Numbered from the stretch's first letter, positions 5,595 through 33,332 are shown. The stretch: DNA of 64,000 bases from a bacterium (GCA_041690355.1 JAWLHK010000002.1:283082-347081); one strand, 5' to 3'. Translations and numbers: made by a program. Notes: generated by a model not told the origin, from the sequence alone.

Positions 5595-5645
5595 GTTAGC
5601 AATCGCTACCTGCGATAGTTCTCCTCTCGCATCGCCGCCGGCTAT

Positions 5646-5864
5646 TTAACCGGGATGTTTCCGGTCAGTCGCTCTGGAAGCTTCGTATCCTTCAAGTTCC
5701 GCTCGCCATTCTCCGGTCAGAAACTTTTCGGTCATGGCCTCGCGCCGCTTCAGCATGAGCGCTTCGGAGAGCAGCTTCCGAATCGCCGGGCCTTTCTTCT
5801 TTTCACCCGTTAACTCGCAGATTTCCCTGACTTCTTCGTCAGCGATTTCAAATGCGATCCTCAT
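5646..5864 (-). CDS. solo antitoxin-like small protein (VapB/DUF2191-like)
   Basis: 72 aa, MRIAFEIADEEVREICELTGEKKKGPAIRKLLSEAL..., resembling VapB-type antitoxins; the 251-aa ORF on the track is judged an overextension across DoxX; region looks lower in GC than its surroundings. Confidence 0.45.
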   Translation of the reverse strand: MRIAFEIADEEVREICELTGEKKKGPAIRKLLSEALMLKRREAMTEKFLTGEWRAELEGYEASRATDRKHPG

Positions 5865-5933
5865 ATTTCTGAGTTTCCCACAGGGCAATGGCAACAAGCA
5901 ACGCCCGAGGTTGCGGCAGTACGGACGTCTCGT

Positions 5934-6404
5934 TTGTATACTGTATGCATGCAGAATCTCACGCGTTTTCTCTATTCTCCCGTCGAGTCGACATCCGTCT
6001 CGCTCGGGCTGCTCGCGCTTCGCGTGGGCACCGGGTTGTTCATGTTCTTCTTCCACGGTCTGGGCAAGGTACTGAATTATGCGGAACGGGCGCAGACGTT
6101 CAAGGACCCACTCGGCGTGGGGAGCGAGATCAGTCTGCTGCTCGCCATTTTCGCCGAGGTCGTCTGCGCGCTCGTGATCGTGCTTGGGCTGGGGACGCGG
6201 CTGGCGGCCATTCCGCTCGTGATCACGATGCTCGTGGCCGCGGGCATCGTGCACATTACCGACCCGTGGGCGAAGCAGGAGTTCGCGCTGCTCTACGCGA
6301 TCCCCTTCTTCGGGCTGCTGCTGACGGGCGCGGGGAAGTTTTCCCTGGATGCCCGTCTCTTCGGGCGCGCACCCGCTGCGCCGGTTCCGCCGACGGTGCA
6401 CTGA
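5934..6404 (+). CDS. DoxX family membrane protein
   Basis: Multi-TM protein with DoxX-like layout; true start may be the internal ATG at 5949 (MQNLTRF). Confidence 0.75.
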   Translation: MYTVCMQNLTRFLYSPVESTSVSLGLLALRVGTGLFMFFFHGLGKVLNYAERAQTFKDPLGVGSEISLLLAIFAEVVCALVIVLGLGTRLAAIPLVITMLVAAGIVHITDPWAKQEFALLYAIPFFGLLLTGAGKFSLDARLFGRAPAAPVPPTVH

Positions 6405-6484
6405 AACTGGGCCTGCTTCCAGCGCGCTTGCCGAGCAGCCGCTTTCGTGCTTAGCTATGAGCAGCCGGCCTTTCTGAAAAAGCG

Positions 6485-6640
6485 ATGCGGACGCGAACCA
6501 TTTTTATCGTTGCCGCGATTCTTGGCTTCGCTTTCTGGTCAGCCTGGCCTTGGCTGGAAGAGTTTCTGGCGGTTGATCGCTGTCTGGACTCCGGCGGTCG
6601 GTGGTTGGCTGAAGAGTCCCGCTGCGAGGATGGGTTGTGA
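6485..6640 (+). CDS. small hypothetical membrane/secreted protein (51 aa)
   Basis: Read by eye (below the track length cutoff): MRTRTIFIVAAILGFAFWSAWPWLEEFLAVDRCLDSGGRWLAEESRCEDGL; stop overlaps the GTG start of the next gene (GTGA). Confidence 0.3.
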   Translation: MRTRTIFIVAAILGFAFWSAWPWLEEFLAVDRCLDSGGRWLAEESRCEDGL

Positions 6641-7020
6641 AACGCATTTTACTCGGTCTCTTCGTTGGCGTTGCTGCCGTGATTGCCGGAAGAGCGGGTC
6701 TCGACTTGGTGCGGCCACGTCATCTGGTCATCGTCCTGAACGAAACCGGCCAGAACCTTCGCTCGTTCGGGATTGGCGTACGGGAACCCAAGGTGTTTGC
6801 GGAGGTGCCCGCGGGTGCGGTTCGATTCTTCGAGTTTCGTGATGTCAGCCATGCCGCCTACGTCTTTTCGCTGCCGAACGCATCCGGAGTCCGGGAGCCT
6901 GCCGGCAGCTGCGGATACACGGGAGCGGGTGTCAACCGGTATATCGTTCGGCTGAAGGAGTTCCCCGTTGAGGACAGGCACTGCGCTCCCGGACACCCAA
7001 CGAACAGGGGAATGGAATGA
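6637..7020 (+). CDS. hypothetical secreted protein
   Basis: 127 aa with N-terminal hydrophobic segment; GTG start; coupled to both neighbouring genes by 4-bp overlaps. Confidence 0.4.
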   Translation: MKRILLGLFVGVAAVIAGRAGLDLVRPRHLVIVLNETGQNLRSFGIGVREPKVFAEVPAGAVRFFEFRDVSHAAYVFSLPNASGVREPAGSCGYTGAGVNRYIVRLKEFPVEDRHCAPGHPTNRGME

Positions 7021-7424
7021 CGAACCCTCTGGTGGGTGGGCGGGTTCCATCCGGCCGGTGGATTGTGCTCGCTCGACGCGCGGGTGCCCTGGCGATCGAC
7101 GGATGCGTCGCGCTCTTCCTCGGTGTCGCGGGCGCGCTGCTCGGCGAAGCGATGGAGCTCCTCCACGGCGCCCGTCCATTCATGCCCGGCGCCGCCGTCG
7201 CGGCTTTTCTGGTCCTTCGAACGGCCGATCTCTCCCTTGGATATCGCGTGTTCGGTCTCAGCGCCGCCAACACATCCCTCGTTAAGAATCTCATTCGTGC
7301 CGTCGCGGTTCTCGTACCCGGGTATAACGTATTTGACGGGGTCCACGCCCTCTTGGTTTCAAATCAGCAGACGTTTACGGACAGCAGACTTGCCGTCAAG
7401 GTGGTTGAGGCACGGCTTCGTTGA
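7017..7424 (+). CDS. hypothetical membrane protein, tentatively RDD-family-like
   Basis: 135 aa; hydrophobic segments with R...D and TFTDSRLAVKVV motifs loosely resembling RDD proteins. Confidence 0.4.
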   Translation: MTNPLVGGRVPSGRWIVLARRAGALAIDGCVALFLGVAGALLGEAMELLHGARPFMPGAAVAAFLVLRTADLSLGYRVFGLSAANTSLVKNLIRAVAVLVPGYNVFDGVHALLVSNQQTFTDSRLAVKVVEARLR

Positions 7425-7447
7425 GGGAAGGCCAATTGTTTGAAGTA

Positions 7448-7476
7448 TTGACAGCAGTGATATCAATGCCTACAAT
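7448..7476 (+). promoter_or_regulatory. sigma70-type promoter of the toxin-antitoxin operon (TTGACA-17-TACAAT)
   Basis: ttgaca at 7448-7453, 17-bp spacer with palindrome tgatatca, tacaat at 7471-7476; the antitoxin ATG at 7483 sits about where transcription would start. Confidence 0.55.
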
Positions 7477-7482
7477 GACGAC

Positions 7483-7734
7483 ATGGCGACACTGAACGTG
7501 AGAAACCTTCCGGACGATGTTCATGCCCGTCTCCGCATTCGCGCGGCCAAGGCCGGCCGCAGCATGGAGGCCGAGGCACGGGCCATTCTCGAATCCGCGT
7601 GTCGCGACGAAACCGCAGCTGAAAAGGAGTCCGATCTCCAGGCGTGGGTCGATAAGCTCTATTCGGGTCGGAAACCAAAACGCGTCGTCGAGTCGCTGAT
7701 CCGTGAACGTCGTCTCGCGGCAAAGCGCGAGTGA
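7483..7734 (+). CDS. type II antitoxin, ribbon-helix-helix (FitA/VapB-like)
   Basis: 83 aa; MATLNVRNLPDDVHARLRIRAAKAGRSMEAEARAIL is typical of FitA/VapB antitoxins; stop overlaps the toxin start. Confidence 0.8.
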   Translation: MATLNVRNLPDDVHARLRIRAAKAGRSMEAEARAILESACRDETAAEKESDLQAWVDKLYSGRKPKRVVESLIRERRLAAKRE

Positions 7735-8105
7735 TTGCACTCGATGCATCGGCGCTGCTGGCGTACCTTTTCCGTGAGCGTGGCCACGAGGAGGTAGCCC
7801 CGCTTCTTGACGAGGCATGTATATCGACGGTGAATTACGCGGAGGTACTTTCCCGATTTGTGCGGGATGGCATCGATATTCTGGACCTCACCGGGCCTCT
7901 GAGCCGTCAGCTTGAAGTGGTACCCTTTGACGAATCACAAGCCGTACGTGCCGCCACTTTGCTCCCTTTTTGTGCGCCGCTGGGCCTATCGCTGGCCGAC
8001 AGGGCCTGTCTTGCCCTTGCTGCGGTCCGGAGTATACCCGTCTACACGGCTGACCGGGTCTGGGCGAAGCTCGACATCGGGATAGACATCCGTTTGATAC
8101 GCTGA
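7731..8105 (+). CDS. vapC: type II toxin VapC (PIN-domain ribonuclease)
   Basis: 124 aa; PIN acidic residues (IALDAS, LSLADRA, YTADR); GTG start overlapping the antitoxin stop. Confidence 0.85.
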   Translation: MIALDASALLAYLFRERGHEEVAPLLDEACISTVNYAEVLSRFVRDGIDILDLTGPLSRQLEVVPFDESQAVRAATLLPFCAPLGLSLADRACLALAAVRSIPVYTADRVWAKLDIGIDIRLIR

Positions 8106-8139
8106 CGGACCCTTCTGTCCGCCATCGGCCATCGGGCAT

Positions 8140-10431
8140 TCAGTTCGCGCGACTCGTCATCTCGAAGACGATCTCGCGGCTCGTGGTCAGCTCTTCGTGC
8201 TCGAGGTAGTGCCGGTTGATGCGCTTACCGTCCACGTAGACCGCGCCGACATAGATATTCTTCTCCGAAGTTCCCGGCGCGCGAATGGTGAGGGTGCGGC
8301 CATTCTCGAGGCGGATGACGGCCTTTTCGAAGATCGGCGTGCCGATCCAGTAGCGGGTCGTGGCGGGAATCGGATAGAAGCCGAGGGCGCTGAAGATGTA
8401 CCAGGCCGACAGCGTGCCGCCGTCGTCGTTGCCGTCGAGGCCGTCGGGACCCGTGCCGTAGCGGCTTTCCATGACCCACCGGATGACCGGCGCGCCGCGT
8501 TTCGGTTCGCCCCACATCGCATACAGGTAGGGGGCGTGCAGGTCGGGCTCGTTGCCGTGCCAGTAGTAGTTGTCGGGCATGCGGATATCGCCGAGATATG
8601 GCTTCGGCGTCTCCTGCGACTTCGTGAAGAAGTGGTCGAGCTTCGCCAGGGCCGCGTCGACGCCGCCGAGCAGCGTCGCCAGCTTCTCGACGTTCCACGG
8701 CACAAGCCAGAGGTACTGCCAGGCGTTGCCCTCGGTGTAATCGTCGGTGTGGTTGAGCGGGTCGAGGGCCGGTAGCGCCCAGGAGCCGTCTCGCTTTTTC
8801 GCGCGGAAAAAGCCGTTCTCCGCATCCCAGAGGGTGTCGAACGCGTCGGCCCGGTCTGCGAAGAACAGGGCGTCTTCTTCCTTGCCGATGGCCTGCGCGA
8901 ACCGGCTGATGGCAAAGTCGGCCCACATGTTTTCCTGCGTAACCGAAACGGAACCGTTGGTGTTGTCGGCGGTGCAGTGCCCGAGGGTGTTGTAATCGTC
9001 GACGCAGCGCCGCATGTTGTACGGGTCACCCCAGACGGCCGTCGAGACCATGAGCGCGTAGGCACGTTGCCAGTCGAAGTCGCGGATTCCCTTGAGATAG
9101 CTGTCTGCAATCACGATGTCGGCCGGGGTACCGATCATGGATGCCCCGTCACGGTGGGCGAAGGGCCAGCGGGGCAGGGAGCCGCGGGCGCGCCCCATTT
9201 CGACGAGTGAGCGCACGAAGTCGCGCTGATACGAGGGCGTCAGCCACGTCAGCAGCGGATGCAGCGTGCGGTAGGTATCCCACAGGCTCATGTCCGAGTA
9301 GAACTCGCTTCCGGCGTCGGCGGCGATGCTTCCGTCAAAGGCACGGTGGCGGCCGTTCACGTCGCTGTAGAGGCTCGGCATCTGCAGGGCATGGTAGAGG
9401 GCCGTGTAGAAGATTTCGCGCTGGTCGGGCGTGCCCCCTTCGACTTCAATCTGGTCGAGGCGGGTCTCCCAGACGGTGCGCGCCGCTTCGCGGATGTCGT
9501 CGAAGGTACGCCCGGCCGTTTCGACCGAGCGGTTCGCCTCGGCATCCCGGGCGCTCGTGAAGGAGATGCCGACGAAGACCTCGACCGGGGCCGACGGATC
9601 GAAGTGGAGATAGGCCCCCGTGCTTCCGCCGCTGCCGTCGGCGCGGGCGTTGATGCCGCGATCCTGGAGGGCGCCGCCGTCGGTGGTCGCGCTCCACACG
9701 CCGTACTTGCGGAAGGGCCTGCTGAAGACGGCATCCATGTAGATGGTGACGCCGCCGAAGCGCCCCGAAAAGGCGTTCCGCTGATGCAGGGAGCCGCGCA
9801 GCCGCTTCTCGCCGGGAAGGATCTCGATCTGGCTCCAGTCGACCTCGCCCGAAGAGAGCGTATGCCCGAGGTCGACCACGACGACGGCATCGGCGCCGGG
9901 GGGAAAGGTGTAGCGGTGCGCGCCGGTGCGCAGCGTGGCCGACAGCTCGGCGCGGATGGCCTGGGCCCGCTGTTCTTCATCGGCCGGATCGGAAACGCCC
10001 AGATCGACGGCGTAGTACCCCGGCTCGCCGACCTCGGCCCCGTGCGTAAAGGGGGCGCTGTATCCGCGCCAGCTCGTTTTCTCGGCGGTCATGCCGAGCG
10101 TGGGCATGAAGGTGACGTTGCCGTAATCGATGGCGCCGGTGCCGTGGACGTGCGTGTGGCTGAAGCCTTCGATGTGCGTATCGCCGTAGAAGTAGCCGGC
10201 GAAGTGCGCGAAGGTCTCCCGGCCGAAGAGTCCGCCCTGGGTGTCGGGGCTCAGTTTGACGAGGCCGAAGGGGAGGGCGGCGCCCGGGTAGCAGCTGCCG
10301 GCGCCGAACCCGGTGCCCCCCGTGCCGATGAAGACGTCGACCTCTTCGAACGGCGAGCGCCGCTCGGATTCGGGAAGCGGAGGGCAGGCGGCGAGCAGGA
10401 AAGCGAAAATCAGGAAGACGAATCGCATCAT
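8140..10431 (-). CDS. glycoside hydrolase family 92 (alpha-mannosidase-like), secreted/lipoprotein
   Basis: About 764 aa; signal peptide MRFVFLIFAFLLAAC; GH92 N-terminal signature VFIGTGGTGFGAGSCYPGAALPFGLVKLSPDT. Confidence 0.85.
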   Translation of the reverse strand: MMRFVFLIFAFLLAACPPLPESERRSPFEEVDVFIGTGGTGFGAGSCYPGAALPFGLVKLSPDTQGGLFGRETFAHFAGYFYGDTHIEGFSHTHVHGTGAIDYGNVTFMPTLGMTAEKTSWRGYSAPFTHGAEVGEPGYYAVDLGVSDPADEEQRAQAIRAELSATLRTGAHRYTFPPGADAVVVVDLGHTLSSGEVDWSQIEILPGEKRLRGSLHQRNAFSGRFGGVTIYMDAVFSRPFRKYGVWSATTDGGALQDRGINARADGSGGSTGAYLHFDPSAPVEVFVGISFTSARDAEANRSVETAGRTFDDIREAARTVWETRLDQIEVEGGTPDQREIFYTALYHALQMPSLYSDVNGRHRAFDGSIAADAGSEFYSDMSLWDTYRTLHPLLTWLTPSYQRDFVRSLVEMGRARGSLPRWPFAHRDGASMIGTPADIVIADSYLKGIRDFDWQRAYALMVSTAVWGDPYNMRRCVDDYNTLGHCTADNTNGSVSVTQENMWADFAISRFAQAIGKEEDALFFADRADAFDTLWDAENGFFRAKKRDGSWALPALDPLNHTDDYTEGNAWQYLWLVPWNVEKLATLLGGVDAALAKLDHFFTKSQETPKPYLGDIRMPDNYYWHGNEPDLHAPYLYAMWGEPKRGAPVIRWVMESRYGTGPDGLDGNDDGGTLSAWYIFSALGFYPIPATTRYWIGTPIFEKAVIRLENGRTLTIRAPGTSEKNIYVGAVYVDGKRINRHYLEHEELTTSREIVFEMTSRAN

Positions 10432-10494
10432 AGCGATGGATTCTACCATGGCGCGTCATTTCTGTAACGCGCTACTTGAGCGCCGGGCACCAGT

Positions 10495-10672
10495 CAAGCG
10501 CCGAGCGCCGAGCGCTGAGCGCCAAGGAAACAAGCACATGGGTATTTTCGGTACTTTCCGGTAAATCGTCAATCGTCAGTATGCGCAACCTCTCGCTGTC
10601 GACTCCGGCCCTGCCTTCGTCGGTCAGCTCGAGGCGAACGGGAATGTCACTCGTCACTCGTAACTCGTAACT
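10495..10672. repeat. mosaic intergenic element, forward orientation (AGCGCCG module 10495-10527, AATCGTC units 10563-10579, TCACTCG array 10647-10672)
   Basis: Same module order and internal unique sequence as the reverse-oriented element at 566-745. Confidence 0.8.
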
Positions 10673-10754
10673 TCGCGGAGCGCTCCCCCTTCCCCCCTTG
10701 GCAAGGGGACGCACTACAATAGGGAAGCGTGAACGCCGCCTCGAGGAGTTACCG

Positions 10755-15375: not shown

Positions 15376-15450
15376 TGGTGGGCGATGTAGGGATCGAACC
15401 TACGACTTCCACCGTGTGAAGGTGGCACTCTCCCGCTGAGTTAATCGCCC
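15376..15450 (-). tRNA. tRNA-Val (anticodon CAC)
   Basis: Minus-strand read GGGCGATTAACTCAGCGGGAGAGTGCCACCTTCACACGGTGGAAGTCGTAGGTTCGATCCCTACATCGCCCACCA folds as a cloverleaf: 7-bp acceptor stem, D and T arms, anticodon loop TTCACAC, encoded CCA. Confidence 0.9.
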
Positions 15451-15510: not shown

Positions 15511-15649
15511 GCCAAGCGCTGAGCACCGAGCGCCCATGAGGAACGAGAAACGTGATCAAGGTTCTTGCCTGGATTCGTCACTCGTCACTCGTAACTCGTA
15601 ACTCGGCACTTGCATAAATCGTCAATCGTCAATCGTAAATTGTAAATTC
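15511..15649. repeat. mosaic intergenic element (AGCGC module 15511-15535, caaggttcttgcc 15557-15569, TCACTCG array 15573-15606, AATCGTC array 15616-15649)
   Basis: Tandem heptamers as in the other elements; the AATCGTC array overlaps the last codons of the 15622..16008 gene. Confidence 0.8.
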
Positions 15650-16008
15650 TCCGGCTCCGCCGCCGCCGCCTCGATGGTTCCGCCCGGGGCCACCAGATAG
15701 AACCCGGCATCCCCGTCACCGTACTCCCCGGACGGATCCGACAGCAGCGGCGCCTGGATGCCGAACCGGTCGCACAGCGCGCGCGCTTCGGCTGGTTCGG
15801 CCGCCACGATCAGATAGACGTTCACGAAATCTTCGAGCAGCCAGTGGGCCACGCGCGCGGCCGCGGCTTCGAGCAGGCGCTCCTGTCTCGCACGGGGAAC
15901 AATGCCGACGACCGTGTGCCCGCGGGCGAAGATTTCGGCCAGATCGATGTTCCCCCCCTTGCTCGAAGCCAGACGGCGGGCGGGAAACGGCGTGCGGACG
16001 GCAATCAT
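15622..16008 (-). CDS. hypothetical protein with degenerate thioredoxin/peroxiredoxin-like segments (no CxxC)
   Basis: 128 aa from MIAVRTP; APLLSDPSGEYGDG and FYLVAPGGTIE resemble peroxiredoxin motifs but no catalytic Cys is present; C-terminal ENLQFTIDD is encoded by the heptamer array. Confidence 0.4.
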   Translation of the reverse strand: MIAVRTPFPARRLASSKGGNIDLAEIFARGHTVVGIVPRARQERLLEAAAARVAHWLLEDFVNVYLIVAAEPAEARALCDRFGIQAPLLSDPSGEYGDGDAGFYLVAPGGTIEAAAAEPENLQFTIDD

Positions 16009-16151: not shown

Positions 16152-17396
16152 ATGACTGGCATGACAGCCTGGCAGGGAAAACAGGTTCTTCTCGGGGTGA
16201 GCGGCGGGATCGCCGCCTATCGCGCCGCCGAACTGGTGCGCCTTTTCGTCAAGGCCGGGGCGAGCGTGAACGTCGTCATGACGCGCAACGCCACCGAGTT
16301 CATCACGCCGCTCACGATGCAGACCCTGAGCGGAAATCCCGTACTTACGGACACCTTCGACCGGGAACAGGGAGCCGACATCAAGCATGTCTCGCTCCCC
16401 GACGAGGCGGATGTGATCGTGCTCGCGCCCGCCACGGCCAACCTCATCGGAAAGCTTGCGAACGGCATCGCCGACGACCTGCTGACGACCGCCCTGCTCG
16501 TGGCCCGCTGCCCCATCGTCATGGCGCCGGCCATGAACGTGCACATGTGGGATCACCCCGTCGTGCAGGAGAACCTCGCCCGGGTTCGCCGTATTCCCGG
16601 CCTTCGCGTCGTGGAACCCGTGGAGGGGCTGCTTGCCTGCGGCTGGGAGGGAAAGGGGAAGCTGGCGGAGCCGGAGGCCATTTTCCGGGCGGCGGGCGAG
16701 GCCCTGCGTCCTCGGGATCTGAGCGGCCGCAGCCTGGTGCTCACGGCCGGGCCGACGCGGGAATTCCTCGATCCGGTCCGCTACCTTTCGAATCCGTCCA
16801 CCGGCAAGATGGGGCTCGCCATCGCCGAGGCCGCCGCCGTGCGCGGGGCCGACGTGACCGTCGTGCTCGGGCCCACCGCCGAGAAGCCTCCGGCCGGGGT
16901 GCGCGTCCTTCGGGTCGAATCGGCCGCCGACATGTTCGAGGCCGCGCGCGCGGCCTTCGCAGACGCCCAGGTGTTCATCGCCTCGGCTGCCGTCGCCGAT
17001 TACACGCCGGCGGTGCGCGAAGACCGTAAAGTGAAGAAAAGCGAGGGGGATGTCGACGTACGCCTGACGCGCACGACCGACATCCTCAAGACGCTTGCCG
17101 CCGACAAGGGTGAGCGGATCGTCGTCGGCTTCGCGGCCGAGACGAACGACGTGGTCCGCTACGCGCGCGAGAAGCTTGTCGCCAAGAACTGCGATCTGGT
17201 CGTCGCCAACGACGTCACGGCGCCCGGAAGCGGGTTCGCCGTCGACACGAACCGGGCGATTCTGGTCGAACGGGAAGGCGAGACCGAGCTACCCCTGCTG
17301 ACCAAGCGTGAGATCGCCGACCGTATTCTCGATCGTGTCGTCGAGCTGCTTGCGCAGGGCGGCCGGATCGAGCGCCCTGAGCGCCACCGCGCCTGA
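16152..17396 (+). CDS. coaBC: bifunctional phosphopantothenoylcysteine decarboxylase / phosphopantothenate-cysteine ligase
   Basis: 414 aa from MTGMTAWQGK; flavoprotein N-domain (VLLGVSGGIAAYRAAEL) and CoaB C-domain (LVLTAGPTREFLDPVRYLSNPSTGKMG). Confidence 0.9.
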   Translation: MTGMTAWQGKQVLLGVSGGIAAYRAAELVRLFVKAGASVNVVMTRNATEFITPLTMQTLSGNPVLTDTFDREQGADIKHVSLPDEADVIVLAPATANLIGKLANGIADDLLTTALLVARCPIVMAPAMNVHMWDHPVVQENLARVRRIPGLRVVEPVEGLLACGWEGKGKLAEPEAIFRAAGEALRPRDLSGRSLVLTAGPTREFLDPVRYLSNPSTGKMGLAIAEAAAVRGADVTVVLGPTAEKPPAGVRVLRVESAADMFEAARAAFADAQVFIASAAVADYTPAVREDRKVKKSEGDVDVRLTRTTDILKTLAADKGERIVVGFAAETNDVVRYAREKLVAKNCDLVVANDVTAPGSGFAVDTNRAILVEREGETELPLLTKREIADRILDRVVELLAQGGRIERPERHRA

Positions 17397-17397
17397 A
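17318..17397. repeat. 80-bp direct repeat, copy 1 (3' end of coaBC)
   Basis: Matches 21988-22067 with 4 mismatches in 80 bp; encodes the CoaBC C-terminus on the plus strand. Confidence 0.85.
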
Positions 17398-17417
17398 GTC
17401 ACGGGCATAGGTTCGGC

Positions 17418-18308
17418 TCAGCGCCGTTTGCCCTGGCTCTCGAGATCCGAATCGTCCTCGTCGTCGGGGTCCTCCGGATCCTCCTCTTCATCGTCTCGGT
17501 CATCGTCGTCCGGCTCGCCGGGCGCTTCGGGGTCTTCATCGTTGATGCGGGGCTGCTGATCCTGCGATCGGGCGCGAATTTCCTCCACCGCTCGCGTTTC
17601 ACCCGCGCGCTCCTGCAGCTCGTCGCGCTGCAGTGCATCGGCCGCATCCCGGGCAGGGTGAGCCGGCCGGCTGAACCCGCGCATGGCGTGGAGCCAGGAG
17701 TCAAAGGCAGACCCCTTCAATGCCTCCGGCTGCACCGCAGCCAGGTCTTCACCCGAGACGAGGCCGGCCGCCAAGGCCCGCGCGGCGGTCCGGGTCGCGT
17801 CGTCCATCTGGCCGGGGCGCAGTGCCGCTCTCAACTGCGTCTTCACGAAGGCTACGGCTTCGCCCTCGCCGGCGCCGGCCGCATTCAGGACGCCGGTGGC
17901 GTACAGAGCAGACTGCATGCGTTGCGCGTCGCCGGCCAGAGCCTGAAGATCGGCAACGGTCGCTGCCGACAAGCCGCCGGCCATGGCCGTCAGCGCCGCC
18001 TGCTGCACGGGGCGTGCCGCTACGGCTCCGGGGGCGGCCTTCTGCAGCGCGGCAAGCCGAGCCCGCTGCAGTTGCAGCGCTTCGACGAGCCGGACTGCCG
18101 GAACCCGCTTTGCGACACCTTCGAGCGCCTTTTGTCGCAGCGGTTCGGTCGGCAGGCCGTCGTTCTCGGCGGCATCGAGGAGCGCCTGTACGCGGGCAGC
18201 CACCTCGCGCGGATAGCCGCTGCGGGCGAGTCGATCGGCAAGTCTCTCCTCGCCCCACGCAGACGGGATGGAAACCAGCAGCAAGAGGATGGTGGCGATT
18301 GTTTTCAC
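17418..18308 (-). CDS. secreted Ala-rich protein with poly-acidic C-terminal tail (hypothetical)
   Basis: 296 aa; signal peptide MKTIATILLLLVSIPSAWG; C-terminal D/E-rich tail. Confidence 0.55.
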   Translation of the reverse strand: MKTIATILLLLVSIPSAWGEERLADRLARSGYPREVAARVQALLDAAENDGLPTEPLRQKALEGVAKRVPAVRLVEALQLQRARLAALQKAAPGAVAARPVQQAALTAMAGGLSAATVADLQALAGDAQRMQSALYATGVLNAAGAGEGEAVAFVKTQLRAALRPGQMDDATRTAARALAAGLVSGEDLAAVQPEALKGSAFDSWLHAMRGFSRPAHPARDAADALQRDELQERAGETRAVEEIRARSQDQQPRINDEDPEAPGEPDDDDRDDEEEDPEDPDDEDDSDLESQGKRR

Positions 18309-18691
18309 GGTGTCCTCTTCTCTAACGGTCGAGCCGCCTCGGAGTCACCGCCCGGCGGAACCAGGAGTACGGCGTTGCGGCCGCCAAAGTCGTCTTGCTC
18401 GTACCAGTCGAAATCGACGGGCGGCGCACTCCCCGCAGGGCCCAGGCAGTGCAGCCGATACACACCGGGCGGCGGCGACGCAAACTGCAGACGCCAGCCC
18501 GCGCGAGTCTCGCGGCTTTCGAGCAGAGAAACCGGTCGCCATGCCGAAAAGTCAGCCAGCAGCTCCGGTCTGCCTCCCAGGGCCGGGCACGTGACTTCCC
18601 AGGCCGCGCCCAGCGACTCGGGGCGTGCCTCACGGTAGCAGCCGGTGACCGCGGTTGCGGCTAGAACCAGTAGAGCGGCGCGAATTCCCAT
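18305..18691 (-). CDS. lipoprotein (hypothetical)
   Basis: 128 aa; lipobox LAATAVTGC; overlaps both neighbours. Confidence 0.5.
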   Translation of the reverse strand: MGIRAALLVLAATAVTGCYREARPESLGAAWEVTCPALGGRPELLADFSAWRPVSLLESRETRAGWRLQFASPPPGVYRLHCLGPAGSAPPVDFDWYEQDDFGGRNAVLLVPPGGDSEAARPLEKRTP

Positions 18692-19566
18692 AGCAGCCGG
18701 GCGGTTGCCCTTTCATAGGAAAAGACGTTCGAGTGGTTGCGCATCGCGGCGGCTGACAGCGTGATGCGATGGGAGGCGGCAACGCGTTGATCGAACCGTG
18801 CATAACCCGCCACCCGTGCGTCGGCCCGTCCCGAGCCATAGTCGCGCACACGGTAGGCGGCCGTGAGCGATGCCGAGGCCCCCCGCCAGAGTGGCGCCGC
18901 GAGGCCGCCGCGCACAGACCAGCCATCGTACCGGTAGACGGCTTCGTCTTCAACGCTGCGGGCGAGGCCGGCCGCCACGGGCACGGCGAGCCACGACAGG
19001 ACCCGCCAGCGCAGGCGCGCTTCGGCGCGGTGTTCGGTGTCGCGTCTCGGATCCAGGTTCGCCGCAGCATCGGCCGTAAGCCGCGTGCCGGCGAAAAGAG
19101 CGCCTTCTACCGGTGCGTCCGGCGCCCACGTGAAAAGTCCTTCGACCTGGCCCCCGTAGGACGTGCGGCCGCCCACCAGCCGTGCCGCCCGGTAGCGGTA
19201 GCCCGCCACAGAGAGGTCGAGCCGCGTTCGCAGGCTGGTCAGAAACGACCACCCCAGCCCCCCTTCGTAAAAGAAGGACGCACCCGGTGAGGCGGTCGGA
19301 GACGACAGCGCCGTGAGTTCTTCACCCTGCGCCGAAACGTCGACGGCCAGCCGGTGCCGCAACCCGGGCACCCAGACGGCCGTCCATCCGACTTCGCCGC
19401 CGGCGATGCCCACGGCGGTCGCGTCCGTCGCGGCGAAGTCATAATTCGAGTCGACGGCCGCCTGCAGGCCGATGCGCGGCCCCGTGGCGAAGACCGGCCC
19501 GTCGGCATGGGCGCGTGCTGCGGGGGCGCCGAGGAGCGCGAGAAGAAGTATCGTTCGCAACAACAC
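18661..19566 (-). CDS. putative outer-membrane beta-barrel protein
   Basis: 301 aa; signal peptide; alternating hydrophobic pattern; C-terminal aromatic residue (…PLYWF). Confidence 0.5.
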   Translation of the reverse strand: MLLRTILLLALLGAPAARAHADGPVFATGPRIGLQAAVDSNYDFAATDATAVGIAGGEVGWTAVWVPGLRHRLAVDVSAQGEELTALSSPTASPGASFFYEGGLGWSFLTSLRTRLDLSVAGYRYRAARLVGGRTSYGGQVEGLFTWAPDAPVEGALFAGTRLTADAAANLDPRRDTEHRAEARLRWRVLSWLAVPVAAGLARSVEDEAVYRYDGWSVRGGLAAPLWRGASASLTAAYRVRDYGSGRADARVAGYARFDQRVAASHRITLSAAAMRNHSNVFSYERATARLLWEFAPLYWF

Positions 19567-19578
19567 GCAGAGGCGACC

Positions 19579-20160
19579 TTACCGGGCGGCGATGTGGACG
19601 ACGGAATTGACGCGGCCGAACCCGTCGTCGACTGTCCCGGCCGCGGCCGGATCGGCCAGCCACTGCTCGCCATCGACGACGAACTGATACTGATAGACGC
19701 CCGGCGTCAGCTCAATCGATAATCGCCAGACCCTGCCTTCACGGCGCAGGACGTGGCGCTCCGGATCCCAGCCATTGAACTCACCCACGAGGGCGACCGA
19801 TTCCGCATGCGGGTGGACGAAGACGAACTCCGTCCCCGAAGGGGAACCGGGCAGCGTTCTCGCCGCCAGAACGCCGAGCGCGAAGGCGAGCACCAGGGAC
19901 GCAAAGGCCGCCAGGGGCGCCGCCCGCCGCAAGGTGAGGCGCCACCATGGGGTACCGTGTTCGGCCGCACGCATACGTACGGCGCGCAAGACCCGTTCCT
20001 CGAAACCGGGAGACGGTTCGGCGTCGATGGGCATGGCCGACCAGGTGCGGGCGGCCGCATCGAGCGCCGGCGATGCGGCACGCCGCCGCGCAAACGCGGC
20101 GTGCTCGGCTTCGGTGAGTTCGCCGGCGAGATACTTGGAGAGCAGTTCAGCGTCACTCAT
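19579..20160 (-). CDS. anti-sigma factor with C-terminal CBM48/AMPK-beta-like carbohydrate-binding domain
   Basis: 193 aa; N-terminal anti-sigma-like region, one TM helix, then VALVGEFNGWDPERH...GVYQYQFVVDGEQWLADP resembling the AMPK-beta glycogen-binding domain; overlaps the sigma gene by 8 bp. Confidence 0.65.
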   Translation of the reverse strand: MSDAELLSKYLAGELTEAEHAAFARRRAASPALDAAARTWSAMPIDAEPSPGFEERVLRAVRMRAAEHGTPWWRLTLRRAAPLAAFASLVLAFALGVLAARTLPGSPSGTEFVFVHPHAESVALVGEFNGWDPERHVLRREGRVWRLSIELTPGVYQYQFVVDGEQWLADPAAAGTVDDGFGRVNSVVHIAAR

Positions 20161-20728
20161 ACAGTTTCTCCAGAGCCTTCAACAGCATAGCCCGTCCGCG
20201 CAGCAGGCGCATCTTGACCGCGCTCAGCCCCACGCCCAGGACCGAGGCGATTTCCTGCAGCGGCCGGTCGTCGTAGTGGGCGAGCATGAGCACCTCGCGA
20301 TAGGAATCGGGGAGAGACGCGAGCGCCTTGCCGACCAGCCTGCGCTCTTCGTCAGAGACCATGCGCACGTCTTCCGGTTCGCCGCCCACGGCCGTGTGGA
20401 GCGCGTACTCCAGCGGCCGCTCGTTTCGAACCGCCTGGGCGCGGAAGTAGTCGTGGGCGAGATTCGAGGCGATGCGCATGACCCAACCGTCGAGGTTCAC
20501 CATCGTGTGAAAGGTGGGCAGGCGGGTGAGCGCACGTACGAGCGCTTCCTGCGTCAAGTCCTCGGCGAGCGTAAAGGAACCTGTCATGCGCAGCAGACGC
20601 CTGAAGAGGAGGGTCTTGTAGCGCTCTACGAAGGCCGACTGGGCCGACCGGTCGCCTGCCTTGCACCGTCGGACGAGGTCTTCGTCATCGGCGCTCGGCG
20701 GGCGGTCGGTAGTGGATTCCTTTGTCAC
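20153..20728 (-). CDS. RNA polymerase sigma-70 factor, ECF subfamily
   Basis: 191 aa with sigma region 2 and region 4 features. Confidence 0.9.
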   Translation of the reverse strand: MTKESTTDRPPSADDEDLVRRCKAGDRSAQSAFVERYKTLLFRRLLRMTGSFTLAEDLTQEALVRALTRLPTFHTMVNLDGWVMRIASNLAHDYFRAQAVRNERPLEYALHTAVGGEPEDVRMVSDEERRLVGKALASLPDSYREVLMLAHYDDRPLQEIASVLGVGLSAVKMRLLRGRAMLLKALEKLYE

Positions 20729-20902
20729 GCGCGCTCATTCCCGGCCTTCCGGGCACGTCAGGTAACCGTCCCCTCGGGCGCGAGACAGTATACCCTACGG
20801 GAATAAACGGATACTCCCCGCCCGCAGTCACATTCTTTTTTCACGCCTGTGACCCGAAGGGCTGCCGGCCGTTGATCGAGAAACCATTGCACCGAGGTCA
20901 CC

Positions 20903-21862
20903 ATGCGCGCTTCCACATCAACCATGATTCTTGCGTTCGGGCTCGCCGCCTGCGCGCCTGCCGCCGCCACCGATCCCGCCGGCCGCCTGTCTGCGGGCGA
21001 CGTGCCGCAGGCCACCGCGCGGCTCACCATCCAGGCTGCGGCGCCCGCCGCGGCGGCCCCTGTCCAACCCCTCGCGTTTCTCGCGAACGGCGTCACCATC
21101 GAAGCGGCGACGGCCGTCATTGCCGAGGTCAATCTCAAGGGCTGGGAGTACGAGGAGGATGACGAGCACGAAGGCGATGATGGCGCGGATGAACGTGAAG
21201 AGGAGGAGGTGGAAGACGATTCGGCTTCCCTGAGCGGCGCGCTGCTGCGCGGCCAGGCAGAAGACGACTCCATCGACGAGGAGGAGGCTGACGAAGCGTC
21301 GTCCGAGGATACCGACGATTCCGGCGACGAAGAAGACAGCGAAGACCCTGAAGTCGAAAACGTAGACTTCAAAGGTCCCTATCATGTCGACCTGCTGACC
21401 GGAGCAAGCACGCCGCCGTTCGGCGATTCCGTGCTGCCGTCGGGGGCATATCGCAGCGTCGAGTTCAAGCTCGACGCACCGGAGGACTCGACGACCGCCG
21501 CGTCGATTGAAATCGCCGGTCGCTTTGCGGTCGACGGCGTTTACCACCCCTTCATCCTGCGCAATCTGCGCGACGAGGAGCTCAAGTGGGATTTCGCCGC
21601 CCCGGTTTCCATGTCGGCGGCCGCCGTCAACGAACTGGTCCTCCGTATTCCCCTGGGGCAGTGGGTGAACGCCGCCCTGGTAGAGGCCATGGCCCAGTCC
21701 GTACGCGACGGCGCGGTCGTGCCCGATGCCGACGGCGTCTACCTCTTTACGACCGAGACGGCCGCGGTCGCCGACATCCTGGAAGCCAATCTCGAGAATG
21801 AGGGCGGGCTCGAACACGATGACGGTGACGACGACGAAGAAGACGACGAAGCGGCTGAATGA
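20903..21862 (+). CDS. acidic lipoprotein (hypothetical)
   Basis: 319 aa; lipobox LAFGLAAC; long D/E-rich low-complexity stretches. Confidence 0.55.
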   Translation: MRASTSTMILAFGLAACAPAAATDPAGRLSAGDVPQATARLTIQAAAPAAAAPVQPLAFLANGVTIEAATAVIAEVNLKGWEYEEDDEHEGDDGADEREEEEVEDDSASLSGALLRGQAEDDSIDEEEADEASSEDTDDSGDEEDSEDPEVENVDFKGPYHVDLLTGASTPPFGDSVLPSGAYRSVEFKLDAPEDSTTAASIEIAGRFAVDGVYHPFILRNLRDEELKWDFAAPVSMSAAAVNELVLRIPLGQWVNAALVEAMAQSVRDGAVVPDADGVYLFTTETAAVADILEANLENEGGLEHDDGDDDEEDDEAAE

Positions 21863-21906
21863 CCGCCTGAAGTCTCGCTCGGCGGGAATCTTGTTAGGGG
21901 GGAGGA

Positions 21907-21945
21907 TGGAGGCGGCAGGGTCACCTGTCGCCTCCATTTTTTTTT
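21907..21945. terminator. bidirectional intrinsic terminator
   Basis: Stem tggaggcggcag / ctgtcgcctcca followed by T9; between two convergent genes. Confidence 0.65.
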
Positions 21946-21961
21946 GGGCGGATGCGTAGGA

Positions 21962-22981
21962 CTAGGCCCGCGAGCCCGTGGGCGGCTCGACCGGATTCTC
22001 GACCGTGTCGTCGAGCTGCTTGCGCAGGGCGGCCGGATCGAGCGCCTTGAGCGCCATCGCGCCTGAACCCGGCACCCGGTCGGGATACCGGTTCGTCCAT
22101 GTACGCGCCGGAAAATCGAACTCCAGAATCGGCGCCAGCTCCTGAAAGTGCATGTCGGGATCAAACTCCGACTTGCGCCGCATGCGCCGGCCTTCCTTAT
22201 GCAGGCGCTGGGCCGTGTCGAGCATGCGCTGCCCGGTCGGATCGTTGTGGTAGGTATGCGAGCGATCCAGCTGATGCAGCATGTCGAAAATACTGTTCAT
22301 GGCCAGGTGATCGTAGCGGTGCGCGTCGGCGGCGTCGAACTGCCATGGTGAGCGCTGGTTCATGGAATTGAGCGCGCTGCGCCACTGCTTCATGTTCTGC
22401 ACGAACAGGGTCGAGTTGAAGATCATTTTGTTCACGCGGTGTGAAAAGATGGTCTCTTCGAGCTGCGACTGGAGCAGCGCGTCGTCGCGCGGATCCACCA
22501 GACGCTGAATACGGCCGGCCATGTCCCAGATCGGTTTCTGCGTCCGCCCGTCGTAGCGCACCTCCCAGTAGGCATGCTTGAATCCCCGCGGGGCGTCGCT
22601 GCGCAGGACCTGGGAGGGAATGAATATGTTGTGGGCGATCGTGTCGGCGGCCAGGTGGGTGATATAGCCCCACATGAAGGCTTTCTGCGGCTCGTCGGGG
22701 GCCTTTTCGAGCAGCTCGAAGGCGACGTCCCAGTTGTGGCAGTGCAGCCGGTAATCGATGTACTTCTTGCCCAGAATCAGATCGGCCGCCAGGTTCCCGT
22801 ACATGTAGTCGAACGAGTACGTGGCGAGCAGCGTGCGCAGGGCGACCGGCACCATCTCGAGGTTGATGAGGACCTCGCTCGCAAAGCGCAGATGCGTGGC
22901 GGGGCCCCAGGCCCATGCCGCGTCGGGCACGAGAAAAACGAGCAGAAAACCGATGAAGATGGACAAGAAAACCATGCGCAC
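21962..22981 (-). CDS. zinc-dependent phospholipase C family protein
   Basis: 339 aa; signal peptide; WGPATHLRF and GYITHLAADTIAHN metal-ligand motifs; last ~25 codons lie on the reverse strand of the 80-bp repeat. Confidence 0.65.
   Translation of the reverse strand: MRMVFLSIFIGFLLVFLVPDAAWAWGPATHLRFASEVLINLEMVPVALRTLLATYSFDYMYGNLAADLILGKKYIDYRLHCHNWDVAFELLEKAPDEPQKAFMWGYITHLAADTIAHNIFIPSQVLRSDAPRGFKHAYWEVRYDGRTQKPIWDMAGRIQRLVDPRDDALLQSQLEETIFSHRVNKMIFNSTLFVQNMKQWRSALNSMNQRSPWQFDAADAHRYDHLAMNSIFDMLHQLDRSHTYHNDPTGQRMLDTAQRLHKEGRRMRRKSEFDPDMHFQELAPILEFDFPARTWTNRYPDRVPGSGAMALKALDPAALRKQLDDTVENPVEPPTGSRA
21988..22067. repeat. 80-bp direct repeat, copy 2 (3' end of the phospholipase C-like gene, opposite strand)
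   Basis: Matches 17318-17397 with 4 mismatches. Confidence 0.85.
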
Positions 22982-33081: not shown

Positions 33082-33332
33082 CAGTCTTCAGGCGTCAGTC
33101 TCCGGTCCTCAGTCGGAATTCGTCACTCGACACTCGATACCCGTCACTGAGTATTCGTCACTCGTCACTCGTCACTCACACAAAGCGCCAAGCGCTGAGC
33201 ACCGAGTGCTGACGAGGCAAGGGCGAAGTGTTTCAAGGTTCTTGCCGGAAACGCGTCACTCGTCACTCGTAACTGAACAAGGTTCTTGCCGCTCAATCGT
33301 CAATCGTCAATCGTAAATCGTCAATCGACGAG
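33082..33332. repeat. largest mosaic intergenic element (CAGTCTT-family 33082-33114, TCACTCG array 33117-33180, AGCGC module 33184-33217, caaggttcttgcc 33234-33246 and 33278-33290, TCACTCG 33251-33275, AATCGTC array 33293-33332)
   Basis: All module types in one spacer, beginning 4 bp after the sulfatase stop and ending next to a TATAAT box upstream of rseP. Confidence 0.8.

What the first reader, a model, noticed from the sequence alone, without database searches (positions are those of the whole stretch)
17318..22067. 80-bp direct repeat brackets a 4.6-kb ECF-sigma island and encodes the C-termini of two convergent genes on opposite strands
17318-17397 and 21988-22067 differ at 4 positions in 80 bp. 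Copy 1 encodes the CoaBC C-terminus (…RVVELLAQGGRIERPERHRA). Copy 2, on the opposite strand, encodes the end of the phospholipase C-like protein (…ALKALDPAALRKQLDDTV). The segment between holds a five-gene minus-strand operon (ECF sigma, anti-sigma, beta-barrel-like protein, lipoprotein, acidic secreted protein) and one plus-strand acidic lipoprotein. This fits site-specific insertion into a site where two gene ends overlapped, with duplication of the attachment core. No integrase is present.
Basis: partly seen in the sequence, partly recalled or inferred. Interest (0 to 1): 0.75.

Follow-up and report, generated by a model that had tools for sequence, protein, structure and literature searches.

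The report
Gene island splits two overlapping genes
A 4.6-kb block of six cell-envelope regulatory genes was inserted where the tail ends of two opposite-strand genes used to share about 108 bases, and 80 of those bases were copied to both sides so that each gene kept a tail; it is a tidy natural example of overlapping genes being pulled apart, not a new kind of system.

Summary
Window 17318-17397 and 21988-22067 match at 76 of 80 bases. Copy 1 ends coaBC. Copy 2, read on the other strand, encodes most of the tail of a zinc phospholipase-C-like gene.

All eight nearest relatives (66-74% identity in that protein) lack the island. In them the two genes converge directly: they overlap in seven (57-123 bp in the six measured) and abut in one. 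Flanking gene order is conserved on both sides, so the window carries a derived insertion into a roughly 108-bp overlap, with 80 bp duplicated.

The insert (17398-21987) is a six-gene unit: ECF sigma factor, anti-sigma factor, a predicted 14-strand outer-membrane barrel, two lipoproteins and an acidic secreted protein. It has two matching promoter-like motifs and a terminator-like hairpin. Two other organisms carry the same unit in unrelated contexts without flanking repeats.

No integrase, transposase, phage or plasmid signal was found. "Insertion into an overlap with duplication" is supported. "Site-specific attachment core" is not shown. I favour a one-off non-site-specific insertion kept by selection because it left coaBC intact. 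A decayed integrative element of the e14/icd type remains possible. Interest is modest.

The parts
16152..17396 (+). coaBC, the bifunctional coenzyme-A biosynthesis gene. The open frame runs from TTG at 16008. The likely start is ATG at 16152 or 16161, giving 414 or 411 aa like the relatives.
   Evidence: Pfam Flavoprotein and DFP domains. NCBIfam TIGR00521 coaBC_dfp scores 459 bits against a cut-off of 219.7. Start positions. It is 62-66% identical to coaBC in L001-L004.
17289..17396 (.). Footprint of the former 108-bp overlap. The antisense strand of the coaBC 3' end is still open in the phospholipase frame. It reads ...ALRALDPAALRKQLDDTIENTVGDLTLGQQG* with its stop at 17289-17291.
   Evidence: The tail resembles the relatives' native tails (ENPVGDLALAE*, ENPVGNLELA*). 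Part of that resemblance is forced by conservation of coaBC on the other strand.
17318..17397 (+). Repeat copy 1. It encodes the last 25 codons and the stop of coaBC, and ends 1 nt after the TGA.
17398..21987 (.). Inserted segment, 4590 bp. It runs from 20 bp beyond one terminal gene's stop codon to 125 bp beyond the other's.
   Evidence: Absent from 8 of 8 relatives at this site. Its gene set is found as a unit elsewhere in L005 and L006. GC3 is 0.775 against 0.844 for the window's other genes.
17418..18308 (-). Secreted protein of 296 aa with a highly acidic C-terminus and a signal peptide ending ...SAWG/EE. Last gene of the operon.
   Evidence: No Pfam, NCBIfam or PHROG match. 48% and 39% identical to the homologues in L005 and L006.
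18305..18691 (-). Small lipoprotein of 128 aa, with lipobox VTGC.
   Evidence: 44% and 43% identical to the homologues in L005 and L006.
18661..19566 (-). Predicted 14-stranded outer-membrane beta-barrel, 301 aa, with a signal peptide and a C-terminal ...WF.
   Evidence: The AlphaFold2 model has 14 strands and mean pLDDT 63, with 70-90 in the C-terminal half. The best Foldseek PDB matches are the porins OmpG (TM 0.54) and CymA. The family has only 4 representatives among 1.84 billion proteins.
19579..20160 (-). Anti-sigma factor of 193 aa. It has a weak zf-HC2-like N-terminus, one transmembrane segment, and an extracytoplasmic CBM48/AMPK-type carbohydrate-binding domain.
   Evidence: Pfam AMPK1_CBM 3e-12, CBM_48 1e-11, and zf-HC2 0.0047, which is below the cut-off. 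NCBIfam antisigma scores 29 bits, below its cut-off. It overlaps the sigma gene by 8 nt.
20153..20728 (-). ECF-type sigma factor, 191 aa.
   Evidence: Pfam Sigma70_r2 and Sigma70_r4_2. NCBIfam TIGR02937 sigma70-ECF scores 89.5 bits against a cut-off of 42.9. The closest homologues are 51-60% identical.
20806..20832 (-). ECF-promoter-like motif TGTGACT-N16-CGTT, about 78 nt upstream of the sigma gene. Candidate autoregulatory promoter.
   Evidence: The motif is conserved at the homologous place in L005.
20848..20873 (+). ECF-promoter-like motif TGTGACC-N15-CGTT, 30 nt upstream of the divergent lipoprotein gene.
   Evidence: the only two matches in the 64-kb window are this one and the one above (chance mean 0.36). 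The motif is conserved in L005 and L006.
20903..21862 (+). Acidic lipoprotein of 319 aa, with lipobox LAAC and a weak DUF4382 match. Transcribed divergently from the sigma operon.
   Evidence: DUF4382 E = 0.0018, below the cut-off. 51% and 45% identical to the homologues in L005 and L006.
21901..21945 (+). Terminator-like hairpin followed by T9, downstream of the lipoprotein gene and inside the inserted segment.
   Evidence: RNA fold -32.9 kcal/mol, z = -7.0 against shuffles. Sequence.
21962..21988 (-). New C-terminal tail of the phospholipase-C-like protein (EPPTGSRA plus stop). It replaces the native ~9-residue tail. All but the first base of its first codon is island-side DNA.
   Evidence: Relatives end ...ENPVGDLALAE* instead.
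21988..22067 (-). Repeat copy 2. On the minus strand it encodes the phospholipase tail ...SGAMALKALDPAALRKQLDDTVENPV. On the plus strand it keeps a disused coaBC end, DRILDRVVELLAQGGRIERLERHRA*.
21962..22981 (-). Zinc-dependent phospholipase-C-like gene, 339 aa (called as 337 aa in the public record).
   Evidence: Pfam PF00882 scores 54.6 bits against a cut-off of 26.8. Identical to P0001 on a 376-kb NCBI contig. The next best homologues are 66-74% identical.

Best explanation
In the ancestor of this lineage, coaBC (plus strand) and a zinc phospholipase-C-like gene (minus strand) converged. Their 3' ends shared about 108 bp, each gene reading the other's antisense strand codon-for-codon.

A 4.59-kb DNA segment was then inserted into that shared stretch. 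The segment carries a complete ECF sigma/anti-sigma envelope module with its own promoter-like motifs and terminator-like hairpin. The 80 bp that end at the coaBC stop codon were duplicated, one copy on each side of the insert.
- The left copy still finishes coaBC.
- The right copy still encodes most of the phospholipase tail. That protein lost its last ~9 codons and gained 8 new ones from island-side DNA.

I infer that the event was a single, non-site-specific insertion. Candidate routes are illegitimate end-joining of a captured fragment at a staggered break, or a replication template switch out to the donor and back 80 bp behind. It was not the act of a dedicated integrase. It survived because this particular outcome left coaBC intact and damaged the phospholipase gene as little as an 80-bp duplication allows.

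Shown: the insertion, its direction, the duplication, and the intact frames. Inferred: the enzymology, and whether the donor was another site in the same genome or a related organism.
For: Repeat and reading frames.

Empty site: all 8 relatives have the two genes directly convergent. Seven overlap, six of them measured at 57-123 bp. Gene order is conserved on both sides: the 157-aa ORF and the H+-PPase on the left; UDG, NfeD, Band7, SpoIID, MacB, ABC and M50 on the right.

Direction and age:
- The two copies are 95% identical, while the relatives are only about 65-70% identical in protein. The duplication is therefore much younger than the clade.
- Three of the 4 differences are synonymous in the coaBC frame, and all 4 change the phospholipase frame.
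- Where relatives are informative, copy 2 keeps the relatives' states: P in ENPV, and L in R-L-E-R as in L001, L004, L008, L010 and L011. This is what is expected if copy 1 drifted once the phospholipase constraint on it was lifted.

Against a dedicated mobile element:
- The six-gene unit occurs in the same order in L005 and L006, at 34-60% identity. There it is flanked by unrelated genes, with no bracketing repeat and no coaBC-like sequence.
- No recombinase or transposase was found in the island or in the genes scanned from 0.9 to 38 kb.
- No inverted repeats lie at the island ends.
- There is no plasmid match.

Boundary logic: the old overlap was 108 bp and the duplication is 80 bp. Both native ends could not be kept. 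Placing the duplication flush with the coaBC stop keeps coaBC whole and minimises the loss from the phospholipase tail.

Mildly atypical codon usage of the island (GC3 0.775 against 0.844; pooled RSCU distance 0.090 against 0.041 +/- 0.011) fits arrival from elsewhere.
Against: - The right edge of the repeat falls exactly one base after the coaBC stop codon. That is the classic signature of elements that integrate into a gene's 3' end and bring a replacement end. My selection argument explains it only after the fact.
- No microhomology is visible at either junction, so a template-switch route has no positive support.
- The 4 mismatches fit equally well if copy 1 was imported as a coaBC-end mimic.
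- No donor site or intermediate is available.
- Only 64 kb of the genome was seen, so a recombinase acting in trans could lie elsewhere.
- Raw reads were not available to confirm the assembly.
Confidence: 0.55

Rival explanations
1. Site-specific integration of the e14/icd type. On this reading, an integrative element whose attachment site mimicked the last 80 bp of coaBC recombined with the chromosome. It supplied a replacement coaBC end (copy 1) and displaced the native end (copy 2), which the phospholipase gene still uses. The element then lost its integrase and all other mobility genes, becoming CIME-like, or it was always moved by a recombinase acting in trans.
For: - Direct repeats are made from the target gene's 3' end, and the identity stops exactly at the stop codon. 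This is the same anatomy as the 163-bp icd duplication by e14 (PMC6379469).
- Copy 2 looks native in both reading frames, and copy 1 differs mostly at coaBC-synonymous sites, as a mimic would.
- Elements that keep attL and attR but have lost their integration genes are a described category (CIME, PMC5704250).
- The island's codon usage is mildly atypical.
Against: - No recombinase, or remnant of one, was found. Only 20 bp and 125 bp of non-coding DNA lie between the terminal genes and the repeats, leaving no room for a decayed gene.
- The cargo is a clade-conserved chromosomal module. It is found in two other contexts without repeats or coaBC-like ends.
- None of 8 relatives has anything inserted at this site.
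- No phage or plasmid similarity.
Confidence: 0.2
2. Two steps. First an 80-bp tandem duplication uncoupled the two genes. Later the module landed exactly at the junction between the two copies, which had become a harmless spot.
For: Relative L003 shows that the same overlap was undone without any insertion. Its coaBC tail and its full-length homologous phospholipase tail are encoded separately, and the two stop codons are 4 bp apart. L003 is nested among overlapping relatives in the phospholipase tree, with 70% support, so its state is derived.
Against: - The insertion must have hit the exact copy junction.
- An 80-bp duplication is not a multiple of 3. It would first have given the phospholipase a long aberrant read-through tail.
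- No trace of a larger duplication is seen at either junction.
- In L003 the two segments share no detectable nucleotide similarity (local score 19 against 17.4 +/- 2.7 in shuffles). The duplication there is itself an inference from protein tails.
Confidence: 0.15
3. The island with its repeats is ancestral, and the relatives lost it by recombination between the two copies, which created the overlap.
For: Recombination between the two copies would indeed regenerate a working overlapped pair. The window lineage is sister to the other eight in the phospholipase tree, with 72% support.
Against: - Copies as old as the clade would have diverged beyond recognition, as in L003, yet they are 95% identical.
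- The phospholipase tail is by nature the antisense of the coaBC end, so a shared stretch must have come first.
- The module sits elsewhere in L005 and L006.
Confidence: 0.03
4. Assembly artefact. On this reading the island was wrongly joined into this locus of a metagenome-assembled contig through a short shared sequence.
For: The source is a 376-kb contig with no named isolate. Reads could not be inspected.
Against: - Two independent false joins would be needed.
- The copies differ at 4 positions, and the longest exact match is 43 bp, shorter than typical reads.
- Both genes remain open, with frame-appropriate differences, and the phospholipase gene has a clean new in-frame stop.
Confidence: 0.03

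Closest known systems
Prophage-like element e14 (and phage 21) integrated in the 3' end of E. coli icd
   Same: The insertion lies inside the 3' end of a housekeeping gene. The insert is bracketed by direct repeats made of that gene's end (163 bp for icd). One copy completes the gene and the other is left at the far side. The copies differ by a few substitutions (PMC6379469).
   Different: - e14 encodes its own integrase and has phage genes. Here there is no recombinase or phage gene.
- In e14 the displaced copy is a dead pseudo-fragment. Here it is still coding, on the opposite strand, for a second gene.
- The cargo here is a chromosomal regulatory module seen in other contexts.
CIME (cis-mobilizable elements): decayed integrative elements that retain attL and attR but have lost integration and transfer genes
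   Same: A gene island flanked by direct repeats at a gene's 3' end, with no integration or transfer genes (definition in PMC5704250).
   Different: - CIMEs are recognised by att sites shared with related functional ICEs or IMEs at the same target. No such related element, and no occupied site in any relative, was found.
- The repeats are not shown to be att sites.
Engineered 'decompression' of overlapping genes (phage phiX174 refactoring)
   Same: Overlapping genes are separated by duplicating the shared stretch so that each gene gets a private copy (10.1101/2020.06.10.143693). This locus is a natural counterpart, and L003 appears to be a second, insertion-free one.
   Different: That work is deliberate synthetic design in a phage. 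Here the overlap is a spontaneous 3'-3' antisense overlap in a bacterial chromosome, the duplication is incomplete (80 of 108 bp), and it came with a 4.6-kb insertion.
Illegitimate-recombination insertions of foreign DNA in bacteria (homology-facilitated or double illegitimate recombination; end-joining capture)
   Same: One-off insertion of a DNA segment without a dedicated recombinase, with junctions at non-homologous points. Small deletions or duplications of the recipient at the junctions are expected.
   Different: An 80-bp target duplication is long for such events, and no junction microhomology is visible. This is a mechanistic analogy, not a tested membership.

Membership tests
Integrase-mediated integrative element at a gene 3' end (e14/icd type) | Direct repeats (attL/attR) derived from the 3' end of the target gene, one of which completes the gene | tested here: met
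   The 80-bp repeat is 95% identical. Copy 1 completes coaBC and ends 1 nt after its stop codon.
Integrase-mediated integrative element at a gene 3' end (e14/icd type) | A tyrosine or serine recombinase gene within the element | tested here: not met
   No recombinase domain in any of the six island proteins with Pfam, NCBIfam or PHROGs. Non-coding space at the ends is only 20 bp and 125 bp. None among the genes scanned from 0.9 to 38 kb either.
Integrase-mediated integrative element at a gene 3' end (e14/icd type) | The same element recurs at the same target, or carries the target-like sequence wherever it is found | tested here: not met
   The module lies in different contexts in L005 and L006, with no coaBC-like sequence or bracketing repeat. 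All 8 relatives have an unoccupied site.
Integrase-mediated integrative element at a gene 3' end (e14/icd type) | Excision to a circular form and regeneration of the empty site | not testable with these tools
   This needs raw reads or PCR.
CIME (cis-mobilizable element) | Lacks integration and transfer genes | tested here: met
CIME (cis-mobilizable element) | The flanking repeats are genuine att sites of a related functional ICE or IME family | tested here: inconclusive
   No related element was found among homologues, plasmids or relatives. The clade is very thinly sampled: the scan of species-representative genomes returned only a 33%-identical Planctomycetota hit.
Transposon or insertion sequence with target-site duplication | Transposase gene, terminal inverted repeats, and a short fixed-length target duplication | tested here: not met
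   No transposase. No inverted repeat at the island ends. The duplication is 80 bp.
ECF sigma / anti-sigma signalling module | Sigma factor with only regions 2 and 4 | tested here: met
   Pfam Sigma70_r2 and Sigma70_r4_2. TIGR02937 scores 89.5 bits against a cut-off of 42.9.
ECF sigma / anti-sigma signalling module | Co-transcribed membrane anti-sigma factor immediately downstream | tested here: inconclusive
   The adjacent gene overlaps the sigma gene by 8 nt, and has a transmembrane segment and an outward-facing CBM48 domain. Its anti-sigma matches fall below the cut-offs (zf-HC2 E = 0.0047; NF052375 29 bits against 100).
ECF sigma / anti-sigma signalling module | Autoregulatory ECF-type promoter | tested here: inconclusive
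   The motif TGTGAC[CT]-N15/16-CGTT occurs twice in the divergent intergenic region and nowhere else in the window. It is conserved in L005 and L006. There are no expression data.
CoaBC (TIGR00521) | Full-length match above the curated cut-off | tested here: met
   459 bits against 219.7, covering residues 8-396 of 414. The first 8 repeat-encoded residues lie inside the model and the last 17 form a tail beyond it.
Zinc-dependent phospholipase C family (PF00882) | Domain match above the gathering score | tested here: met
   54.6 bits against 26.8, residues 29-148. Enzymatic activity was not tested.

The most novel reading that the evidence does not exclude
The six-gene ECF module could be a recombinase-less mobile cassette. 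It would move between chromosomal sites and genomes by inserting at gene 3' ends and making long, gene-preserving target duplications. Movement would be driven either in trans by an unlinked recombinase or by a mechanism not yet described. Its three different contexts in three organisms would then reflect active mobility rather than ordinary rearrangement.
Probability: 0.07. Interest if true: 0.7.

Novelty: new variant of a known kind. Interest (0 to 1): 0.35.

Why it matters
Long antisense overlaps between bacterial genes are often dismissed as annotation errors, and how they are undone in evolution is rarely documented. This locus gives a dated before-and-after picture:
- a roughly 100-bp tail-to-tail overlap conserved in seven of eight relatives;
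- one lineage where it was split by an insertion with an 80-bp duplication;
- apparently a second lineage (L003) where it was split without any insertion.

After the split, each copy keeps only the frame it still needs. This is direct evidence that both frames of the overlap were really coding.

The locus also shows that a complete ECF sigma module, with promoter-like motifs and a terminator-like hairpin of its own, can be dropped into the middle of a conserved housekeeping block. It does not reveal a new molecular system.

Tried and rejected
- Closer relatives: the protein search found nothing above 74% identity except the source itself.
- I did not run the metagenome scan. The protein database covers the same sources and had already shown that no close relative exists.
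- Word-based search with the barrel protein found only itself. The exhaustive search found 3 distant relatives, and tblastn showed homologues in L005 and L006.
- Repeats bracketing the module in L005 and L006: none.
- Homologues of the L005 and L006 flanking genes in the window or in L001-L004: none.
- Degenerate extension of the repeat beyond 80 bp at either edge: similarity drops to background.
- Nucleotide trace of a tandem duplication in L003: none.
- Plasmid matches to the island DNA or to its lipoprotein: none. Phage-family matches: only the sigma factor.
- A Xer/dif-type module was rejected by reasoning only. The repeat is the conserved coding end of coaBC in all relatives, not an intergenic dif-like site.
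- The palindrome CTCGAC-N6-GTCGAG inside the repeat was noted as a possible recombinase core. It is too short to mean anything, and it encodes the conserved LDRVVE of CoaBC.

Full report
**1. The observation**

Window 17318-17397 and 21988-22067 are a direct repeat, identical at 76 of 80 positions. The mismatches are at repeat positions 7, 16, 60 and 70, and the longest perfect block is 43 bp. About 1e-28 such pairs are expected by chance in this window. No other long near-identical direct repeat exists in the 64 kb.

Copy 1 encodes the last 25 codons and the stop of coaBC. Its family assignment rests on Pfam Flavoprotein and DFP domains and on NCBIfam TIGR00521 at 459 bits against a cut-off of 219.7. 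The repeat ends one base after the TGA.

Copy 2, on the minus strand, encodes ...SGAMALKALDPAALRKQLDDTVENPV of a 339-aa protein with a zinc-dependent phospholipase C domain (PF00882, 54.6 bits against 26.8). On the plus strand, copy 2 still carries a disused coaBC end with its stop codon (DRILDRVVELLAQGGRIERLERHRA*).

**2. What lies between the copies**

The 4590 bp between the copies hold six genes.

Minus-strand operon:
- ECF sigma factor (TIGR02937, 89.5 bits against 42.9).
- A membrane protein overlapping the sigma gene by 8 nt. It has a weak anti-sigma N-terminus and an outward-facing CBM48/AMPK-type carbohydrate-binding domain.
- A 301-aa protein modelled as a 14-strand barrel (pLDDT 63). 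It resembles the porins OmpG and CymA (TM about 0.5).
- A 128-aa lipoprotein.
- A 296-aa secreted protein with an acidic tail.

Divergent plus-strand gene:
- A 319-aa acidic lipoprotein.

The divergent intergenic region has two back-to-back copies of TGTGAC[CT]-N15/16-CGTT, one facing each way. They are the only two matches in the window. The motif is conserved at the homologous positions in two related loci. A strong hairpin followed by T9 sits after the lipoprotein gene. I infer that the insert is a self-contained, probably autoregulated ECF module able to work wherever it lands.

**3. Relatives: the decisive evidence**

The phospholipase-like protein has one exact match, on a 376-kb NCBI contig. 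It has eight homologues at 66-74% identity, and everything else is at or below 43%. I retrieved the contigs of all eight.

| Locus | Arrangement of coaBC and the phospholipase-like gene |
|---|---|
| L001 | overlap 123 bp |
| L011 | overlap 111 bp |
| L002 | overlap 102 bp |
| L008 | overlap 102 bp |
| L004 | overlap 99 bp |
| L009 | overlap 57 bp |
| L010 | coaBC end seen overlapping by translation; length not measured |
| L003 | stop codons 4 bp apart, no overlap |

In every one the two genes converge directly with nothing between them.

Gene order on both sides matches the window. On the left are the small ORF upstream of coaBC and the H+-pyrophosphatase. On the right are UDG, NfeD, Band7, SpoIID, MacB, the ABC ATPase and the M50 protease.

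In the window, the antisense strand of the coaBC end upstream of copy 1 is still open in the phospholipase frame. It stops at 17289-17291, implying a former overlap of 108 bp.

The next outgroup (P0010, 38% identity) keeps the SpoIID-Band7-NfeD-UDG-phospholipase order but has polyphosphate kinase instead of coaBC next door. The convergent pair is therefore specific to this nine-member clade.

**4. Direction and age**

- The copies are 95% identical, whereas the relatives differ by 30-35% in protein. The duplication is much younger than the clade.
- Three of the four differences are third-codon-position, synonymous changes in the coaBC frame. All four change the phospholipase frame.
- Where relatives are informative, copy 2 has the relatives' states: P of ENPV, and L of R-L-E-R.

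This fits copy 1 having drifted once it no longer had to encode the phospholipase tail. It fits equally well if copy 1 arrived as a coaBC-end mimic on an element.

An ancestral island lost by the relatives is unlikely for three reasons. Copies that old would have diverged. The phospholipase tail is by nature the antisense of the coaBC end. The module sits elsewhere in other members of the group.

**5. Where the island comes from**

The sigma factor has four homologues at 51-60% identity. Two of their contigs (L005 and L006) carry all six genes in the same order, at 34-60% identity. Their neighbours are unrelated. L005 has a lipoprotein gene and a fatty-acid desaturase. L006 has an amidase-like gene and a metallo-beta-lactamase-fold gene. 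There is no bracketing repeat and no coaBC-like sequence.

The barrel family has only four representatives among 1.84 billion proteins. The module is therefore a narrow, clade-specific unit that occupies different places in different genomes. Its codon usage in the window is mildly atypical: GC3 is 0.775 against 0.844, and the pooled RSCU distance lies just beyond the largest of 500 random five-gene sets. That fits arrival from elsewhere but does not prove horizontal transfer.

**6. Mechanism**

The product is certain. The enzymology is not.

Evidence against a dedicated mobile element:
- No integrase, transposase, phage or plasmid signal was found in the island.
- None was found in the genes scanned from 0.9 to 38 kb.
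- There are no terminal inverted repeats.
- Only 20 bp and 125 bp of non-coding DNA lie at the island ends.
- The module has no fixed target.

Evidence for site-specific integration:
- The repeat ends exactly at the coaBC stop codon. This matches e14 in icd, where the prophage supplies a substitute gene end and leaves a 163-bp duplicate (PMC6379469).
- Elements that keep their att sites after losing their integration genes are a known category (CIME, PMC5704250).

My preferred reading is a one-off, non-site-specific insertion with an 80-bp target duplication. An 80-bp duplication cannot cover a 108-bp overlap. The variant that keeps coaBC whole and trims the fewest phospholipase codons is the one flush with the coaBC stop, which is what is seen. 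This argument is after the fact. No junction microhomology supports any particular route.

A two-step route, with tandem duplication first and insertion later, has a partial precedent in L003. There, both tails are encoded separately although they are homologous to the overlapped tails of the other relatives. L003 is nested among overlapping relatives in the tree. Its two segments no longer share detectable nucleotide similarity.

My confidences are: non-site-specific single event 0.55; decayed or trans-mobilised site-specific element 0.20; two-step 0.15; ancestral island 0.03; assembly artefact 0.03.

**7. Comparison with what is known**

In anatomy, the locus works like a gene-3'-end integration of the e14/icd kind. 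It fails two defining features of that family: it has no recombinase, and it does not recur at the same target. CIME membership is inconclusive because the repeats are not shown to be att sites. It is not a transposon.

The closest conceptual parallel is the engineered decompression of overlapping phage genes, in which the shared stretch is duplicated (10.1101/2020.06.10.143693). This locus is a natural, incomplete version of that, coupled to an insertion.

**8. Verdict**

It is unproven, and on balance disfavoured, about a site-specific attachment core. The case is a neat piece of genome evolution rather than a new system, so interest is modest (0.35).

**Limits**
- Raw reads were not available.
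- Only 64 kb of the genome was seen.

Noticed in passing
L003 10900-11250 (Logan SRR27723350 contig): In this relative the same gene pair does not overlap, and the stop codons are 4 bp apart. Both the coaBC tail and a full-length homologous phospholipase tail are nevertheless present, encoded by separate DNA. This looks like an older, insertion-free duplication of the overlap. The two segments share no detectable nucleotide similarity. L003 is nested among overlapping relatives in the protein tree, with 70% support.
   Followed up: partly
window 20806-20832 (-) and 20848-20873 (+); L005 401-427, 1462-1488, 1541-1567; L006 1719-1745: An ECF-promoter-like motif, TGTGAC[CT]-N15/16-CGTT, occurs twice back-to-back in the island's divergent intergenic region and nowhere else in the window. 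It is conserved in both related loci. In L005 it also precedes the flanking 122-aa lipoprotein gene, which may belong to the regulon there.
   Followed up: partly
window ~605-696, 2716-2830, 4546-4645, 10493-10676, 15511-15651, 33187-33329: A family of intergenic elements is built from arrays of 7-nt units (AATCGTC, ACTCGTC, AATTGTA) around a 60-90-nt core, often next to a GCGCCGAGCGC-type stretch. The copies at 605-696 and 10556-10647 are 91% complementary over 92 nt. None touches the island junctions.
   Followed up: partly
window 15376-15450 (-): tRNA-Val(CAC) lies about 0.7 kb upstream of coaBC. tRNA genes are classic integration targets, but the island is not at this one.
   Followed up: yes
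window 39878-40116 and 42307-42545: A 239-nt direct repeat at 74% identity, probably paralogous coding sequence.
   Followed up: no
L012 (JGI 3300023283 contig), 5260-8755: The nearest outgroup of the phospholipase-like protein keeps the SpoIID-Band7-NfeD-UDG-phospholipase gene order, but polyphosphate kinase follows instead of coaBC. The convergent coaBC pairing, and the overlap-encoded tail, arose within the small clade.
   Followed up: partly
window 17396-17420: After the insertion, coaBC converges on the last gene of the island operon, with only 21 bp between the two stop codons and no terminator-like structure between them. Transcription from the two sides may collide there.
   Followed up: no
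window 18661-19566 (-): The island's barrel protein belongs to a family with only 4 representatives among 1.84 billion clustered proteins. It is modelled as a 14-strand outer-membrane barrel.
   Followed up: partly
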